The translations under genes were made by a program, and so were the position numbers. A stretch of 64,000 bases of DNA from Escherichia phage vB_EcoM_ASO1A. The DNA lies in the sequence record MZ726791.1; one strand, given 5' to 3'. Below the pieces are notes generated by a model that saw only the letters and a program-made list of their open reading frames with translations, was not told the origin of the DNA and ran no database searches. Below, piece after piece: positions 56,271 to 61,049 of the stretch. Positions within the stretch are counted from its first letter, which is position 1. Each line of letters starts with the position of its first letter.

Positions 56271-56816
56271 TCAAAAGTGTCCTTTTACTTGTGGAACATA
56301 GATTTCAAAGGTTGCTTTACCATCTACTGATGGTTTTGACTGAATCTTAGCGAAAATTTGACGGTCATGCAACTTATCAAAGAAATTCTCAAAAGGTAGA
56401 TGCACAGTTGCCTCTTCAGTAACTTCATGGAAAACTGTATGGAACACTACATCAGCATACGGTAAAGCACTGACAAGAATACCTACACCACCAATTACGA
56501 AGACGTCTTCTTCAATATTACTATCAAGATACTTTAAAAATGCTCCAAAAGAATCTTGATGAGCCTTAGCAAACATAACATCATCTTTGGTGAAGTCCAT
56601 ACCATAATAAGGCACAGAATTTGTTAAGATGAGGTTTGTACGTTCTGGTAAAGGTTTACTGCCCAGAGTCTTATAAGTCTCGTTACCCATAACTACTAAG
56701 TTGTCTTTAGTAAGTCTCTTAAACTCTTGCATATCCTGTTTATGTCGAGGCCACGGCATACCAGTTGGAGTACCAAACTCCCCATTTTCACCACTTGCAA
56801 AGATTAATTTAATCAT
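56271..56816 (-). CDS. frd: dihydrofolate reductase
   Basis: MIKLIFA...GMPW...LVVMGNETYKTLG pattern typical of DHFR; adjacent to thyA. Confidence 0.8.
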   Translation of the reverse strand: MIKLIFASGENGEFGTPTGMPWPRHKQDMQEFKRLTKDNLVVMGNETYKTLGSKPLPERTNLILTNSVPYYGMDFTKDDVMFAKAHQDSFGAFLKYLDSNIEEDVFVIGGVGILVSALPYADVVFHTVFHEVTEEATVHLPFENFFDKLHDRQIFAKIQSKPSVDGKATFEIYVPQVKGHF

Positions 56817-57073
56817 TTTGTAAATCCTTTCTTAATAAACCAGTTGATAACATTCTTCACAGCTTTATTGCTATGGTAGATTAAGTGTGGCGTAGGTTGG
56901 TATGAACCATAAGCCCAGAAAGCAATGATTTCATTACATCCTGTACACCTTGTACTCTCTTCAGCAATATGACCGTTGGCTATTTCACTTACCTCACCTT
57001 GTAAGTCTGTACACCCACAATGTGGACATCGGATAGGTGTTCCATCAGACTCATAGCAGTGTTCAATTTTCAT
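56813..57073 (-). CDS. small zinc-ribbon protein
   Basis: CPHCGC ... CTGCNE Cys pairs. Confidence 0.45.
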   Translation of the reverse strand: MKIEHCYESDGTPIRCPHCGCTDLQGEVSEIANGHIAEESTRCTGCNEIIAFWAYGSYQPTPHLIYHSNKAVKNVINWFIKKGFTK

Positions 57074-57589
57074 TTATTTAACCTCAAAAACTGGCTCAAG
57101 AACCAATATAAAGTCTACACAGTCATCTTCTTCATCCAGAATACCATCAAAGTTCTTAGGAACGAAGTCGAAGAGGCTCATAACAAAACAGTCAGAAGTG
57201 ACCTTGATAGTTCCTCCCATGTTCTCTACAGTCAACACTGTACGACTTTCTTTTACCTCCCTCAGAAGATTACCCACAAAGTCATCTAAGAAGTACTTCA
57301 TCAGTGACTTAAAACCTTTAGGGTAATCTGTACCAGAGTATGTTTCAATCTGAGGCACAAGCTTAACATTTATACTAGTCTTTGTTAAGAACGTGTTAGA
57401 GAACATGCTATCAGGTAACTTACAAACAGTCTTTCCAGTATCTTCATGTTCAATCTCAACAAAACCAGCTTCGTCGCCACATGTAACTATTTTAAAAGAT
57501 GCTTCATTCTCATACTGTGAAGCCATAAACTTTTTAAGCATCTCTTTAAGGAAATCTGCATGAGCATCTTGTAAGTAGATATCAATCAT
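57074..57589 (-). CDS. hypothetical protein
   Basis: 171-aa ORF. Confidence 0.5.
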   Translation of the reverse strand: MIDIYLQDAHADFLKEMLKKFMASQYENEASFKIVTCGDEAGFVEIEHEDTGKTVCKLPDSMFSNTFLTKTSINVKLVPQIETYSGTDYPKGFKSLMKYFLDDFVGNLLREVKESRTVLTVENMGGTIKVTSDCFVMSLFDFVPKNFDGILDEEDDCVDFILVLEPVFEVK

Positions 57590-57602
57590 AGTTAATCACC
57601 TA

Positions 57603-57962
57603 TTATGGGAACAGACACTTGATGTCATCGTTTTTAAAAACAAAACTTGTGTAGTTGTGACCATCAACATCCAGCCAAACAGCCTGAACATCTACACCAT
57701 CAAGATTTTGGTAAAGCTCTTTGATGAAGTGGTCTTTTACAATCTTACTGCTAGTTGTTTCCAACTTAATGTTCGAGATTGCTGAACCAACAGCCATATA
57801 GCCCATGACACGTTTCTTCTCAGTATGCTTAATCTTACCATCTTTGTAAGCCATAATGAGATTGGAGAGAATCTTCACACCATAATACTTTTCAAGGTGA
57901 GTAGGTGCACCATAAAAGCCTAATGCGAAATTTTCAGAGTGGATAATGTTTTCACGTTTCAT
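57603..57962 (-). CDS. hypothetical protein
   Basis: 119-aa ORF. Confidence 0.5.
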   Translation of the reverse strand: MKRENIIHSENFALGFYGAPTHLEKYYGVKILSNLIMAYKDGKIKHTEKKRVMGYMAVGSAISNIKLETTSSKIVKDHFIKELYQNLDGVDVQAVWLDVDGHNYTSFVFKNDDIKCLFP

Positions 57963-57963
57963 A

Positions 57964-58469: not shown

Positions 58470-58859
58470 TCAAATACCTGTGCAGCTTCTGTTTTCTAAG
58501 AAATACTCCACACCATACATAGCTTTTTGCATCAAATCTTCTTTAAACTGGATACGGTGGTTGAGCATCGCCTGTACATCAATATCATCACGGTGTTTCT
58601 CTTTAATGTTTGCAGATTGCAGGAAATACTCTGCAAGAACACGATACTGGTAGTCAGTTACCTTATCAGTCATCTCTGTTAAAGACTCTTCAGAGATTGG
58701 TTTAAGTAGTTCACCATTAGCTAGAGCAACACCTTTTACAATCTGGCAAGTATCCTCTGGGACACCTGATAAGTTCACATTTGGCAGTTCTGTTGCATTA
58801 ACTGGTAAACTCATTGCCATAACCATTGCAGCAGCTAATAAAATCTTTTTCATAAACAC
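58470..58859 (-). CDS. secreted/periplasmic protein
   Basis: Signal peptide MFMKKILLAAAMVMAMSLPVNA. Confidence 0.5.
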   Translation of the reverse strand: MFMKKILLAAAMVMAMSLPVNATELPNVNLSGVPEDTCQIVKGVALANGELLKPISEESLTEMTDKVTDYQYRVLAEYFLQSANIKEKHRDDIDVQAMLNHRIQFKEDLMQKAMYGVEYFLENRSCTGI

Positions 58860-59281
58860 CTCAAAGTTATATTAAATTTTGTATGACGTTGAGTATAAAA
58901 ATAAGCTATAACACCTGAACTGTCAACAGATTTTATAGCTTATTTGGCAGATTTTTTATAAGGCTACTGCCATCCTTCCATACCAAACCATACAAGACAT
59001 AGCCATACCCGACCTCACCCTACCGGACATCACTTAAAAACCCTCTTAGAAGACTCTTAAGTGATGCTGGTGAGTACCCGTTGGTTTATGCTGCTCAGTA
59101 TACTCACCAAATTTTCTATGTCAACAACTTTTTATAAAAAAGTTCTGATAGCTATATGTGTCACGAAACAAAAGATTGTAAACAAGACACCCATTGCAAA
59201 AGATGTGTCCAAAAGCTTACTTGCAACGTATGACAATACAAAGACAACCAGTATAAACAGAATGACTGTACTGAACATAGT

Positions 59282-60421
59282 TTATTCATAATCCCTAATA
59301 ACTAGCCCTACAGGAAACTGTAAAGAACCCTTACGAGTCATCTTCTGGAACTGAACAGTTAAAGGCTTCCCGATAAACTCTTCAGGATGTTCAGCAAGAT
59401 ACTGTTTCTTCTCGTGTGTAGTTTTCCATGAAACATCTACAAAGACGTTAGGAAGAGTCTCTACAACGAACTTACCATGACCACGCTTATCGGTCTTTAC
59501 ACCAGTCACTTTAAACTCTTCAGTGTGCATCTTCTTGTGCTTAATCAAGAAGTATGAACGGTGACCACACTCATAGAAGGAGTCTTCAGCAATTGAACGG
59601 TACATTGCACCTTCAAACTTAGCTTCAACCCACTTATCATGGGCTTCGTCAAACGCTTCCCAAGAATTTACACGACGAGACTTAACAGGGACAACTTTAC
59701 AGCCATCTCTAAAGTCATTCAATGGTGAAGTCTCAATAATATCTCTACGCTCAGGCCACGTCTTAGTACTGTCACAGATATCATACCAGTAAAACTTAAG
59801 TAAGTGTCTGTCAGGATTGTCTTCATTTTTAATCATAGAGACGATATCTTCTAAGTCCCACCCATGAGCATAAATCTCTCCATCAAATTCATCAACATCT
59901 TTGTGGAGCCTTAACATTGTCATAATGTCAGGTATTAGTTCAGTAGGGATTTTATAAACAGTATTCTCACGAGAGTATGCTGTAAATACGCTACCAATGC
60001 TTAAGTGTCTTGAAATTCTACAACGGACACCATCAAGTTTTGGTTGAGCATCAGCAGGAAACTTCAGATACTTTGCATGACTAACCTTTGCAGCATCATG
60101 AGCAAGCTGTACACCTACCTTCTCAGTATTCTGTGCAGACTCTTTTGTGTAAGCATAACCTTTGCGGTCAACTTGTTTCTTGTACTTAGCAGAAACTTCA
60201 AAGAGAGCTTGCTGTTCAGCGTTACGCTCATTCTTTTTACCGATGTTTTTAGGCTCTGCTGTGTACTCTTCAAACATCATCTTACCATTTTCTTTACCAT
60301 AGGTTGTAATAACTTTGTCACCTACAGCAACACATGACCAGACATTGAAAGAGCCATCTTTATTTTGTTTGTACAGTATTGTCATTTTATTCCTCTGAGT
60401 GATACCAAGTATTGCAAGCAT
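59282..60421 (-). CDS. ATP-dependent DNA ligase
   Basis: KLDGVRC adenylation motif I (KxDGxR); 379 aa, size of T7-type ligases. Confidence 0.7.
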   Translation of the reverse strand: MLAILGITQRNKMTILYKQNKDGSFNVWSCVAVGDKVITTYGKENGKMMFEEYTAEPKNIGKKNERNAEQQALFEVSAKYKKQVDRKGYAYTKESAQNTEKVGVQLAHDAAKVSHAKYLKFPADAQPKLDGVRCRISRHLSIGSVFTAYSRENTVYKIPTELIPDIMTMLRLHKDVDEFDGEIYAHGWDLEDIVSMIKNEDNPDRHLLKFYWYDICDSTKTWPERRDIIETSPLNDFRDGCKVVPVKSRRVNSWEAFDEAHDKWVEAKFEGAMYRSIAEDSFYECGHRSYFLIKHKKMHTEEFKVTGVKTDKRGHGKFVVETLPNVFVDVSWKTTHEKKQYLAEHPEEFIGKPLTVQFQKMTRKGSLQFPVGLVIRDYE

Positions 60422-60578
60422 TACATGCGTAAAGCTCTAAGTCATTTTTATCTGGTTTATGAAAACAGTTTGCTCCACAGTGGCAACGAAACGGCTTTCC
60501 ACCAACTGTCAGGATGAAGGATTGAACCTTTCCATCAGGAGTTCGTACAGCATTTTCACGGTTATCTTCTTTGCTCAT
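60387..60578 (-). CDS. small Cys-rich protein
   Basis: CHCGANCFHK ... CNACNTW. Confidence 0.4.
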   Translation of the reverse strand: MSKEDNRENAVRTPDGKVQSFILTVGGKPFRCHCGANCFHKPDKNDLELYACNACNTWYHSEE

Positions 60579-60880
60579 TTTCTCTTACCACCAATTTCCA
60601 CGTCGATAACCTGAACACCGACAGCAACATCAAACTTGTGAGTAATACTCTCCACAGTGTAAGTCCAACCATCAATACTAACCCGTTCACCCTCTCGTGG
60701 TACTATTGGGTTTTGTTGAGCCACGGTTGCAGTGGAATAAACAACATCGTAGCAATAGATATAGTTGACTAGAATTTGCATATCAGTACCCTCCATCAAT
60801 AACAGTAGTGTGAGATTGGCCATTTTTGCCATATCTATAAGATGTTGTTGTTTGAGAGTTGGGGCATCTGACAACAACAA
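60575..60880 (-). CDS. hypothetical protein
   Basis: 101-aa ORF. Confidence 0.45.
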   Translation of the reverse strand: MLLSDAPTLKQQHLIDMAKMANLTLLLLMEGTDMQILVNYIYCYDVVYSTATVAQQNPIVPREGERVSIDGWTYTVESITHKFDVAVGVQVIDVEIGGKRK

Positions 60881-61049
60881 TATCCCTGCTTATAGCATCA
60901 CCATTGAGTTTGTAGATTTTGCAGTCTTGCATCTCTGGAGGGAGGCTGTAAGAGGCATCTTTGTTTTCATAAGATGGGTTACAGCCAGCCAGAAAAATTA
61001 CTCCAAGTGCAACCATTACTTTCACACAACTCTTAACCTTATTGTTCAC
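60783..61049 (-). CDS. small lipoprotein
   Basis: Signal peptide with lipobox FLAGC. Confidence 0.5.
   Translation of the reverse strand: MNNKVKSCVKVMVALGVIFLAGCNPSYENKDASYSLPPEMQDCKIYKLNGDAISRDIVVVRCPNSQTTTSYRYGKNGQSHTTVIDGGY

What the first reader, a model, noticed from the sequence alone, without database searches (positions are those of the whole stretch)
56813..61049. Small Cys-rich, secreted and lipoprotein genes scattered in the nucleotide-metabolism/replication block
Two small zinc-ribbon-like proteins (56813-57073, 60387-60578), a signal-peptide protein (58470-58859), a lipoprotein with lipobox FLAGC (60783-61049) and an HTH protein (57964-58293) lie among thyA, DHFR, ligase and polymerase. 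Small envelope-targeted lipoproteins of lytic phages can block the phage receptor (superinfection exclusion), and the HTH protein is a candidate regulator, possibly of the iteron region.
Basis: inference. Interest (0 to 1): 0.35.

Follow-up and report, generated by a model that had tools for sequence, protein, structure and literature searches.

The report
Small conserved early genes, Felix O1-like phage
The flagged small genes are real but ordinary conserved "hypothetical" genes of a Felix O1-like phage. The lipoprotein belongs to a large uncharacterised family of phage lipoproteins (DUF4884), and it does not look like a plug for the phage's own receptor.

Summary
The window is a Felixounavirus genome, 93-95% identical to Escherichia phages Andreotti and ASO1B and Salmonella phage Si3.

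All five flagged ORFs exist on the minus strand, inside the thyA-DHFR-ligase-polymerase transcription unit. Their predicted features hold:
- **HTH:** an XRE-type helix-turn-helix protein, above Pfam's cut-off.
- **Zinc ribbons:** two small proteins whose Cys ligands are conserved across genera.
- **Secreted protein:** a Sec signal peptide (VNA|TE).
- **Lipoprotein:** lipobox LAGC with Asn at +2.

All are already in databases as hypothetical proteins with PHROG families.

The lipoprotein is not the o-spanin; the spanin pair is at 5332-5842. It belongs to DUF4884/phrog_902, with 631 clusters at 50% identity. The family occurs in Felix O1-like, rV5-like, jumbo, T4-like Aeromonas, 114-kb Vibrio and Acinetobacter phages.

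Between Felixounavirus and Mooglevirus its mature domain is 88% identical, against 51% for the tail fibre and 34% for the secreted protein. It is not next to the tail-fibre gene and matches no PDB chain. Felix O1-like phages use LPS, not a protein receptor. An Llp/Cor-type receptor block is therefore unlikely; a conserved host envelope target is more likely.

Nothing links the HTH protein to the repeat field. Interest is low to moderate.

The parts
60783..61049 (-). Small lipoprotein precursor (88 aa, 66 aa mature) of the DUF4884/phrog_902 family. It has lipobox LAGC (Cys23), Asn at +2, and two further invariant Cys (C43, C62).
   Evidence: phrog_902, 3e-18; 631 clusters; PF16225 precomputed; AF2 pLDDT 69, five beta strands.
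58470..58853 (-). Secreted (periplasmic) protein, 127 aa. The signal peptide is cleaved after VNA20. Two conserved Cys lie near the ends of the mature chain. It is restricted to Ounavirinae and diverges fast (phrog_4332).
57964..58263 (-). XRE/Cro-C1-type HTH protein, 99 aa, with an acidic N-terminal extension of about 45 aa. Its start overlaps the end of the upstream gene by 8 nt.
   Evidence: HTH_3, 39.4 bits against a cut-off of 23; phrog_1373, 1.2e-26; 72% identical in Sf14.
56813..57073 (-). Zinc-ribbon protein, 86 aa (CxxC...CxxC), phrog_2993. Its stop overlaps the DHFR start.
   Evidence: (sub-threshold Lar and ECs_2282 hits).
60387..60578 (-). Small Cys/His-rich zinc-ribbon-like protein, 63 aa, phrog_5768. 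It is an accessory gene, replaced by unrelated ORFs in ASO1B and in Mooglevirus.
57074..57962 (-). Two conserved hypothetical genes: 57074-57589 (171 aa, phrog_4422) and 57603-57962 (119 aa, phrog_4116).
58256..58468 (-). Conserved hypothetical gene, 70 aa, with a basic C-terminal tail (phrog_4473). It is translationally coupled to the HTH gene.
60575..60778 (-). Conserved hypothetical gene, about 67 aa (phrog_4427), immediately downstream of the lipoprotein gene.
58898..58945 (-). Sigma-70-like promoter (TTGACA-17-TATTTT) upstream of the signal-peptide gene. Its -35 box is bracketed by a 19-nt inverted repeat (58899-58917 / 58927-58945), a candidate operator or hairpin.
   Evidence: promoter annotated in ASO1B; I13.
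59097..59124 (-). Strong sigma-70-like promoter (TTGACA-16-TATACT, 11 of 12 matches) in the spacer between the ligase and the signal-peptide gene.
59132..59278 (-). 48-aa ORF with two hydrophobic segments, directly after the ligase gene: a possible small membrane protein (phrog_22006).
   Evidence: intact in 65 records; 5.5e-33.

Best explanation
The region is part of the conserved minus-strand replication and nucleotide-metabolism transcription unit of a Felixounavirus. This unit is presumed to be early. The five flagged ORFs are genuine, syntenic, conserved genes of that unit, not anything peculiar to this window.

Lipoprotein (60783-61049)
- It is a member of the large, uncharacterised phage lipoprotein family DUF4884/phrog_902.
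- Inferred pathway: it is exported by Sec, lipidated at Cys23 and cleaved by signal peptidase II. Because residue +2 is Asn, not Asp, Lol should sort it to the inner leaflet of the outer membrane.
- Its roughly 55-residue beta-rich domain would be stabilised by a C43-C62 disulfide and would face the periplasm.
- The mature domain is as conserved as the DNA ligase, and the family spans phages with unrelated adsorption machinery.
- I therefore infer that it binds a conserved host envelope component rather than the phage's own, variable receptor.
- The most likely consequence is remodelling of the infected cell's envelope. That could mean general exclusion of incoming phage or DNA, protection from lysis from without, or jamming of a conserved outer-membrane machine.
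- I put about 0.3 on this, and under 0.1 on an Llp-style block of the phage's own receptor.

Other genes
- The signal-peptide protein (58470-58853) is a periplasmic, disulfide-bonded protein restricted to Ounavirinae, and it diverges fast. That fits a host- or phage-interaction factor.
- The HTH protein is an XRE-type DNA binder. It most plausibly regulates phage transcription, possibly its own operon through the inverted repeat that brackets the -35 box at 58899-58945.
- The two Cys-rich proteins are small cytoplasmic zinc ribbons of unknown partner.

The overall confidence below combines about 0.9 for the identities with about 0.3 for the mechanisms.

Shown here: gene reality, family membership, motifs, conservation, distribution and synteny.
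Inferred: localisation, the disulfides, the targets and every function.
For: - Phage identity: 259 phage records match; the best are 93-95% identical Felixounaviruses. Gene order is the same in ASO1B and Si3 and in Mooglevirus Sf14.
- Families: each ORF has a PHROG with E values from 1e-18 to 1e-92. HTH_3 is above Pfam's cut-off.
- Lipoprotein signal and conservation.
- Family size: 631 50%-identity clusters at E <= 1e-3, and 87 at E <= 1e-10.
- Family naming: every homologue carries the precomputed hit PF16225, named DUF4884.
- Distribution: 598 phage records across Felixounavirus, Mooglevirus, Vequintavirinae, jumbo phages, 114-kb Vibrio phages and Acinetobacter phages. The BFVD structural neighbours are phage 'Lipoprotein' entries of Aeromonas phage Aeh1 and Vibrio phage JSF10.
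- Rarity in cells: a motif scan of 185,579 species' genomes found only 2 loci.
- Not the spanin: the Rz-like i-spanin is at 5332-5679 (phrog_1152, 8e-42), with an overlapping lipoprotein gene at 5573-5842.
- Divergence between Felixounavirus and Mooglevirus: lipoprotein mature domain 88%, ligase 87%, thymidylate synthase 78%, HTH 72%, tail fibre 51%, mature signal-peptide protein 34%.
- Structure: AF2 with an 86-sequence alignment gave pLDDT 69 and five strands.
- Promoters and inverted repeat.
- Timing: Felix O1 genes 96-80 are described as one transcription unit, presumed early because it carries replication genes (PMC3185647).
- Receptor: LPS is reported as the receptor class (PMC8594841).
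Against: - No experiment and no characterised homologue exist for any of these proteins, so every mechanistic statement is inference.
- The AF2 model is only of moderate confidence, and nothing matched in the PDB.
- No conserved neighbouring gene points to a partner.
- High conservation of the lipoprotein could also reflect a structural or enzymatic role unrelated to exclusion.
- The on-hand Pfam library did not reproduce the DUF4884 hit, even for proteins whose precomputed hit is unmarked (E <= 1e-5). Pfam membership therefore rests on precomputed annotation plus phrog_902.
- The inverted repeat at the promoter is not conserved in Sf14, although the HTH protein is 72% identical there. That weakens the operator idea.
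Confidence: 0.6

Rival explanations
1. One reading: the lipoprotein is an Llp/Cor-type superinfection-exclusion protein. It would bind the phage's own outer-membrane receptor and prevent adsorption of the same phage.
For: It shares general features with T5 Llp. Both are small outer-membrane-type lipoproteins of about 60-66 mature residues. It has two conserved Cys that could form an intramolecular disulfide. It is encoded by a virulent phage in a presumed early unit (Llp features from PMC9586334).
Against: - Felix O1-like phages are reported to target LPS, not a protein receptor. A lipoprotein is unlikely to mask LPS, which I recall is present at about a million copies per cell.
- The gene is not adjacent to the tail-fibre gene at 52198-54687 (+), unlike llp and cor.
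- It does not co-vary with the tail fibre: 88% against 51% identity.
- The family is shared by phages with unrelated receptors.
- A family profile matches no PDB chain at E <= 10, apart from signal-peptide-only matches, and the Foldseek PDB search found nothing. A FhuA-Llp crystal structure was reported, so Llp should be among those chains; I did not confirm that.
Confidence: 0.08
2. The lipoprotein is a lysis component: an o-spanin or a lysis-timing factor that acts on peptidoglycan hydrolases.
For: o-Spanins are the commonest small phage lipoproteins. A bacterial homologue in Hylemonella gave a weak hit to a PHROG named 'Rz-like spanin' (1.7e-5), probably through its signal peptide.
Against: - A proper spanin pair exists at 5332-5679 and 5573-5842.
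- No gene with a transmembrane segment lies beside the 60783-61049 gene, and that gene hits no spanin PHROG.
- It sits in the replication unit, not with lysis genes.
- Its mature part is a folded beta domain, not a short unstructured chain.
Confidence: 0.05
3. The HTH protein binds the repeat ('iteron') field at 14860-16230, as an origin-binding or replication regulator.
For: The repeat field is real. TGTTAAG occurs there 16 times out of 40 in the window, and CTTGTTAR 13 times out of 25, within 1.5 kb. The HTH gene lies in the replication block.
Against: - There is no computational link.
- XRE dimers usually bind palindromes. The only good palindrome near the gene brackets its own operon's promoter, and its half-site is not enriched in the repeat field.
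- Weak NCBIfam similarities are to antitoxin or repressor-type XRE proteins, not initiators.
Confidence: 0.1
4. The secreted protein (58470-58853) is a functional analogue of T4 Spackle or RI. It would be a periplasmic protein that inhibits the tail lysozyme of superinfecting phage, or that signals lysis inhibition.
For: - It has a cleavable signal peptide and two conserved Cys.
- It lies in the presumed early unit of a myovirus.
- It evolves fast (34% identity against 72-88% for its neighbours), as expected for a protein in a phage-phage or phage-host arms race.
- It is restricted to one phage subfamily.
Against: No sequence similarity to any PDB chain at E <= 10. There is no positional link to the holin-like gene at 54962-55333.
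Confidence: 0.15
5. The zinc-ribbon protein at 56813-57073 is a Lar-like restriction-alleviation protein.
For: Sub-threshold NCBIfam hits to the Lar family (19.2 bits) and to the ECs_2282 CxxC family (21.3 bits) over both CxxC knuckles.
Against: - Both scores are far below the cut-offs of 39.6 and 37, and the match covers essentially only the zinc knuckles.
- The conserved C-terminal half (FWAYGSY...) is not covered by the Lar match.
- A Felixounavirus was reported as remarkably sensitive to several restriction-modification systems.
Confidence: 0.07

Closest known systems
Pfam DUF4884 (PF16225) / PHROG phrog_902: uncharacterised small lipoproteins, mostly from large virulent phages of Gammaproteobacteria
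   Same: The profile matches (phrog_902, 3e-18). A 98%-identical protein carries PF16225. Members share the lipobox Cys, two further invariant Cys, a VVRCPNSxTTT...GK motif and a length of 75-100 aa.
   Different: Nothing distinguishes it from the family. The family itself has no known function. The on-hand Pfam copy did not return the model.
T5 Llp and T1/phi80 Cor superinfection-exclusion lipoproteins
   Same: All are small outer-membrane lipoproteins of virulent phages. This one has a probable single intramolecular disulfide and lies in a presumed early unit (for Llp).
   Different: There is no detectable sequence or fold relation. The gene is not next to the receptor-binding protein gene. 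The phage uses LPS rather than a TonB-dependent transporter. It does not co-vary with the tail fibre. The family spans phages with many different receptors.
Rz1-type o-spanins
   Same: Small phage lipoprotein with an outer-membrane sorting signal.
   Different: It has no partner i-spanin, and the phage has a separate overlapping spanin pair at 5332-5842. It sits in a different genomic module.
XRE / Cro-C1 family HTH regulators (Pfam HTH_3), including the HTH domains of PezA, HigA and HipB antitoxins
   Same: The HTH_3 domain at residues 53-103 of the 109-aa ORF scores above the gathering threshold. There is weak similarity to the PezA HTH.
   Different: It has an acidic N-terminal extension of about 45 residues with no match. 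It is encoded by a virulent phage with no lysogeny module. Its operator is unknown.
T4 Spackle (Sp) and RI periplasmic proteins
   Same: Small, Sec-exported periplasmic proteins of myoviruses, analogous to the 58470-58853 product.
   Different: No sequence similarity to any solved structure. Function is untested.
Lar / ECs_2282 small CxxC zinc-binding proteins
   Same: Two CxxC knuckles with similar spacing.
   Different: Scores are well below the family cut-offs. The conserved C-terminal half is not covered by either match.

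Membership tests
Bacterial/phage lipoprotein (signal peptidase II substrate) | A basic N-terminal region, a hydrophobic region, and a lipobox [LVI][ASTVI][GAS]C within about 15-35 residues of the start | tested here: met
   MNNKVKSCVKVMVALGVIFLAGC23 has 3 Lys and a hydrophobic-region mean Kyte-Doolittle score of 2.6. Only 2 such ORFs occur in a six-frame scan of the 64 kb.
Bacterial/phage lipoprotein (signal peptidase II substrate) | The lipobox Cys is conserved in homologues | tested here: met
   C23 is invariant in 86 diverse family members.
Bacterial/phage lipoprotein (signal peptidase II substrate) | Actual acylation and globomycin-sensitive processing | not testable with these tools
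   Needs labelling experiments. LipoP and SignalP were not available.
DUF4884 (PF16225) / phrog_902 | Significant match to the family profile | tested here: met
   phrog_902 scores E = 3e-18. PF16225 is precomputed for the 98%-identical P0001 and for every homologue listed, and is named DUF4884. The local Pfam-A scan returned no PF16225 hit, even for proteins whose precomputed hit is unmarked (E <= 1e-5), so the model seems to be absent from that copy.
Llp/Cor superinfection-exclusion lipoproteins | Sequence or structural homology to Llp or Cor | tested here: not met
   The family profile against all PDB chains gave only signal-peptide-level matches with E > 0.7. A FhuA-Llp crystal structure was reported, so Llp should be among those chains, though I did not confirm it. 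Foldseek against the PDB gave no hit with E < 0.1. Cor itself was not tested directly.
Llp/Cor superinfection-exclusion lipoproteins | The gene is adjacent to the receptor-binding protein gene | tested here: not met
   The tail-fibre gene is at 52198-54687 (+). The lipoprotein gene is at 60783-61049 (-), more than 10 genes away. Adjacency is described.
Llp/Cor superinfection-exclusion lipoproteins | Co-variation with the receptor-binding protein and receptor | tested here: not met
   The mature lipoprotein is 88% identical between Felixounavirus and Mooglevirus Sf14, against 51% for the tail fibre. This rests on a single pair of genera.
Llp/Cor superinfection-exclusion lipoproteins | The phage uses an outer-membrane protein (TonB-dependent transporter) as its receptor | not testable with these tools
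   The literature states that the Felix O1 group targets LPS and not protein receptors (PMC8594841). This was not tested for this phage.
Llp/Cor superinfection-exclusion lipoproteins | Expression blocks adsorption or infection by the same phage | not testable with these tools
   Needs an experiment.
o-Spanin (Rz1) | The gene is embedded in, overlapping, or adjacent to an i-spanin gene that encodes an N-terminal transmembrane segment | tested here: not met
   The neighbouring products at 60575-60778 and 61056-61184 show no hydrophobic transmembrane-like stretch. The real pair is at 5332-5679 (phrog_1152, 8e-42) and 5573-5842.
Sec (signal peptidase I) secreted protein: 58470-58853 | N-, h- and c-regions with small residues at -3 and -1 | tested here: met
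   MKK / ILLAAAMVMAMSL / PVNA|TE. The signal peptide and both mature Cys are retained in the 35%-identical Sf14 orthologue. This is rule-based; SignalP was not run.
XRE/Cro-C1 HTH (Pfam HTH_3): 57964-58263 | Score above Pfam's gathering threshold | tested here: met
   39.4 bits against 23, E = 6.1e-10. phrog_1373 'transcriptional regulator' scores 1.2e-26.
XRE/Cro-C1 HTH (Pfam HTH_3): 57964-58263 | Sequence-specific operator binding | not testable with these tools
   A candidate inverted repeat at 58899-58945 brackets the -35 box, but it is not conserved in Sf14.
Zinc ribbon: 56813-57073 and 60387-60578 | Two Cys knuckles (CxxC or similar), conserved in orthologues | tested here: met
   In the 86-aa protein, C16, C19, C43 and C46 are conserved in Sf14 and in an RB49-like homologue annotated with CATH 2.20.25.10. 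In the 63-aa protein, C32, C34, C38, C52 and C55 are conserved in phiEa21-4. Metal binding was not tested.
Lar restriction-alleviation family (TIGR03655) | Score above the NCBIfam cut-off | tested here: not met
   19.2 bits against a cut-off of 39.6.

The most novel reading that the evidence does not exclude
DUF4884/phrog_902 lipoproteins may be a so far unrecognised, widespread class of phage envelope effectors. In this reading they are made from presumed early units, anchored in the outer membrane and stabilised by a disulfide, and they bind one conserved envelope machine of Gammaproteobacteria. Candidates would be an Lpt, Bam, Tol-Pal or OmpA-type component, or a cell-wall hydrolase. That would give receptor-independent exclusion of competitors or protect the infected cell. 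The mechanism would differ from the receptor-specific jamming by Llp and Cor.
Probability: 0.3. Interest if true: 0.6.

Novelty: already known. Interest (0 to 1): 0.27.

Why it matters
For this window the result is mainly tidy annotation. The flagged genes are standard conserved hypotheticals of Felix O1-like phages, which are used in Salmonella and E. coli biocontrol and typing.

The one point of wider value concerns the lipoprotein:
- It belongs to a very large phage lipoprotein family with no known function.
- It is as conserved as the core replication enzymes.
- Members occur in unrelated virulent phages of many Gammaproteobacteria, and in this phage and a 114-kb Vibrio phage the gene sits among replication genes.

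Finding its target would explain a common step in how large lytic phages take over the cell envelope. It could also reveal a new way of excluding competitors, or a conserved envelope vulnerability.

Tried and rejected
- Sequence search of the PDB with the lipoprotein, the signal-peptide protein, both zinc ribbons and the 171-aa and 119-aa proteins found nothing meaningful.
- The 8vd6 'CAP REPEAT' hit for the HTH protein is a designed repeat protein that sums four weak HTH-like matches, so I dismissed it.
- AF2 of the lipoprotein with a shallow alignment gave pLDDT 53 and was unusable. With 86 sequences it reached 69.
- Foldseek against the PDB gave no hit; the top matches were flavivirus E domain III at TM about 0.2. 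BFVD returned only other uncharacterised phage lipoproteins.
- The local Pfam-A scan never returns PF16225, so Pfam membership could not be re-derived.
- I looked for a conserved neighbour of DUF4884 genes in five other phage contexts. There is none, only a tandem paralogue in one contig.
- The promoter inverted repeat's half-site is not enriched elsewhere in the window: 18 matches at up to 2 mismatches against 12 +/- 3 expected. It is not enriched in the repeat field either.
- The genome-contig scan with the broad alignment failed for lack of a conserved stretch. A narrower alignment gave only 2 bacterial loci, and the Hylemonella one shows no clear prophage context.
- Literature searches for Felixounavirus lipoproteins, exclusion or transcriptomics found nothing specific.
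- I suspected a split polymerase gene at the window edge. The last 300 bases are 100% identical to the contiguous ASO1B polymerase gene, so the gene simply runs off the window.
- No structure prediction was possible for the signal-peptide protein, because both jobs went to the lipoprotein.

Full report
**What the window is**

The 6.2 kb around the finding matches 259 phage records. The best matches are 93-95% identical Felixounaviruses (Escherichia phages Andreotti and ASO1B, Salmonella phage Si3). GC skew and ORF orientation show that 55370-64000 is one minus-strand block.

In ASO1B and Si3 the same genes are annotated in the same order: thymidylate synthase, DHFR, several 'hypothetical proteins', a 'transcriptional regulator', DNA ligase, more hypothetical proteins, an HNH endonuclease and DNA polymerase. 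The Felix O1 genome paper treats this block (genes 96-80) as one transcription unit and presumes it is early because it carries replication genes (PMC3185647).

**Checking the observation**

All five ORFs are present at the stated coordinates.

- **56813-57073 (86 aa).** It has C16xxC19 and C43xxC46. These four Cys are conserved in the Mooglevirus Sf14 orthologue and in a distant RB49-like T4-type homologue annotated with a zinc-ribbon CATH superfamily. C6 and C21 are not conserved.
- **60387-60578 (63 aa).** It has C32-x-C34-x3-C38 and C52xxC55, all conserved in Erwinia phage phiEa21-4. This gene is accessory: an unrelated small ORF takes its place in ASO1B and in Sf14.
- **58470-58859.** It has a textbook Sec signal, MKKILLAAAMVMAMSLPVNA|TE. 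The ATG at 58853 is the likely start, as annotated in relatives.
- **60783-61049.** It starts at a GTG behind GAGAGG and carries MNNKVKSCVKVMVALGVIFLAGC, with lipobox L-A-G-C23 and Asn at +2.
- **57964-58293.** It hits Pfam HTH_3 at 39.4 bits against a cut-off of 23. The ATG at 58263 (99 aa) is the likely start.

As chance controls I scanned all six frames of the 64 kb. A lipoprotein-signal rule found just two ORFs, this one and the gene at 5573-5842. A crude Sec-signal rule found about eight, of which four look convincing. SignalP and LipoP could not be run.

**The lipoprotein**

It is not the o-spanin. The phage has an Rz-like i-spanin at 5332-5679 (phrog_1152, 8e-42), and the overlapping lipoprotein gene at 5573-5842 is in the Rz1 position. 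The 60783-61049 gene has no neighbour with a hydrophobic transmembrane-like stretch.

It belongs to phrog_902 (3e-18). A profile built from its close relatives, searched against 1.84 billion representative proteins, found 631 clusters at E <= 1e-3 and 87 at E <= 1e-10. Nearly all are 75-110 aa long.

The family shares a lipobox, a Y-x-LP-x-EL-x-DC-K motif and a VVRCPNSxTTT...GK motif. C23, C43 and C62 are the only invariant columns among 86 diverse members. That pattern fits a lipidated Cys plus one disulfide.

Every homologue carries the precomputed Pfam hit PF16225, named DUF4884. The on-hand Pfam library does not return that model even for strong members, so I rely on phrog_902 and the precomputed annotation.

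tblastn finds the family in 598 phage records:
- Felixounavirus and Mooglevirus
- Vequintavirinae (Cronobacter phage CR8)
- 350-380-kb jumbo coliphages and an Erwinia jumbo phage
- about 300 Vibrio phages of 114 kb
- Acinetobacter phages

The BFVD structural neighbours add T4-like Aeromonas phages Aeh1 and phiAS5, Vibrio phage JSF10 and a Yersinia phage. Where they are named at all, the name is 'Lipoprotein'.

No member is functionally annotated. A motif scan of one genome from each of 185,579 bacterial species found only two loci, so the family looks essentially phage-borne.

The genomic neighbours differ between phages. In a 114-kb Vibrio phage the gene sits between genes annotated 'replication origin binding' and 'helicase'. 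Elsewhere it lies among small early or accessory genes near Tad2-like, NAMPT, RlaP and Thg1 genes. No neighbour is conserved.

AF2 with the 86-sequence alignment gives a five-stranded beta domain at pLDDT 69. Neither Foldseek nor a profile search finds any solved relative.

**Does it block the receptor?**

The T5 Llp paradigm is a small periplasm-facing outer-membrane lipoprotein with one disulfide. Its gene lies directly downstream of the receptor-binding protein gene, and it jams the plug of the TonB-dependent receptor FhuA (PMC9586334). The BASEL study likewise places cognate exclusion genes in the receptor-binding protein loci (PMC8594841).

The lipoprotein here shares only the general format. 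Five points argue against the specific model:

1. Felix O1-like phages are reported to use LPS and no protein receptor.
2. The gene is more than 10 genes from the tail-fibre gene (52198-54687) and on the other strand.
3. Between this phage and Mooglevirus Sf14 the mature lipoprotein is 88% identical. That is as conserved as the ligase (87%) and more than thymidylate synthase (78%) or DHFR (68%), while the tail fibre is 51%.
4. The family is shared by phages with unrelated adsorption devices and hosts.
5. There is no homology to any PDB chain. A FhuA-Llp crystal structure was reported, so Llp should be among those chains, though I did not confirm it.

I therefore rate an Llp/Cor-type block of the phage's own receptor below 0.1.

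The conservation pattern points instead to a conserved host envelope target. My best guess, at about 0.3, is envelope remodelling of the infected cell. That could be general exclusion of incoming phage or DNA, protection from lysis from without, or jamming of a conserved outer-membrane or periplasmic machine. All of this is inference.

**The secreted protein**

It is confined to Ounavirinae (258 records) and has no Pfam or PDB relative.

The Sf14 orthologue is only 34-35% identical. It nevertheless keeps the signal peptide and both Cys, one near each end of the mature chain. That fits a periplasmic, disulfide-bonded protein.

It is the fastest-evolving orthologue pair in the block. This is what one would expect of a protein engaged with a variable partner, so a Spackle- or RI-like role is conceivable, but it is untested.

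**The HTH protein**

It is an XRE/Cro-C1-type HTH with an acidic N-terminal extension, and it is 72% identical in Sf14. Its ATG overlaps the stop of the upstream 70-aa gene by 8 nt.

The operon has two sigma-70-like promoters in the spacer between the ligase and the signal-peptide gene: 59124-59097 (11 of 12 matches) and 58926-58898. The -35 box of the second is bracketed by a 19-nt inverted repeat, 58899-58917 / 58927-58945. This could be an operator for autoregulation. However, Sf14 has a different inverted repeat there, so the idea is weak.

Nothing computable links it to this protein.

**The zinc ribbons**

The 86-aa protein gives sub-threshold NCBIfam hits to the Lar restriction-alleviation family and to the ECs_2282 CxxC family (19-21 bits against cut-offs of 37-40). 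These cover little more than the zinc knuckles. I do not file it in either family. Both proteins are best described as small cytoplasmic zinc-ribbon proteins of unknown partner, which are common in large phages.

**Verdict**

They are, however, already-sequenced, conserved hypothetical genes of a well-sampled phage genus, and their scatter among replication genes is normal phage architecture.

Envelope targeting and the regulator-type fold hold. The specific receptor-blocking model is disfavoured, and the iteron link is unsupported.

The only lead with wider interest is the size, conservation and phage-wide spread of the uncharacterised DUF4884 lipoprotein family.

Noticed in passing
window 5332-5679 (+) and 5573-5842 (+): An overlapping spanin pair. 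The first gene is an Rz-like i-spanin (phrog_1152, 8e-42, N-terminal transmembrane segment). The second is an 89-aa lipoprotein (MKKLSQSFIMFVLLITMSGC) in the Rz1 position, and it falls in PHROGs of unknown function (phrog_4180).
   Followed up: partly
window 3583-4131 (+): A second Sec-type secreted protein of the phage: 182 aa, MKKLILGLCLMLTAHLSYA|VD, phrog_600, function unknown.
   Followed up: partly
window 59132-59278 (-): A 48-aa ORF with two hydrophobic segments directly after the ligase gene. It matches phrog_22006 (5.5e-33), is intact in 65 Felixounavirus records, and is left unannotated in most of them. It may be a small membrane protein.
   Followed up: partly
window 58860-59131: The spacer between the ligase and the signal-peptide gene holds two sigma-70-like promoters, a hairpin (59028-59066), a run of GGTATGG-like repeats (~58960-59020) and a 19-nt inverted repeat around the -35 box. 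Phage ASO1B has two extra genes inserted in this spacer, so it looks like an insertion hot spot.
   Followed up: partly
window 14860-16230: A non-coding field of about 1.4 kb at the strand-switch point, packed with short repeats. TGTTAAG occurs here 16 of 40 times in the window and CTTGTTAR 13 of 25 times; GCTMTAWAR and CTTAAAAG also recur. It is a candidate replication origin or regulatory region.
   Followed up: partly
window 26246-31397 (+): A cluster of 25 tRNA genes, as is typical of Felix O1-like phages.
   Followed up: no
window 54767-55333 (+): Two small genes between the tail fibre and thyA: 64 aa (phrog_402) and 123 aa with one transmembrane segment (phrog_4038). The 123-aa gene corresponds in position to the 'putative holin' of Sf14. 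A bidirectional terminator-like hairpin follows at 55339-55362.
   Followed up: partly
window 61657-62172 (-): An HNH homing endonuclease gene sits between the small-gene cluster and the DNA polymerase gene. Its presence and position vary among relatives.
   Followed up: no
L011 4001-4297 and 4294-4620 (metagenomic phage contig): Two DUF4884-type lipoprotein genes in tandem. The second (108 aa) has lipobox LVGGC and a VVQCSGNQTT motif, which shows that the family can duplicate.
   Followed up: no
window 58470-58853 and 63700-64000 compared with phage ASO1B: The secreted protein and the polymerase segment are 100% identical to ASO1B. Yet ASO1B has two extra genes upstream of the secreted-protein gene and an unrelated ORF in place of the 63-aa zinc-ribbon gene. 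The two phages are mosaic at the level of accessory genes.
   Followed up: partly
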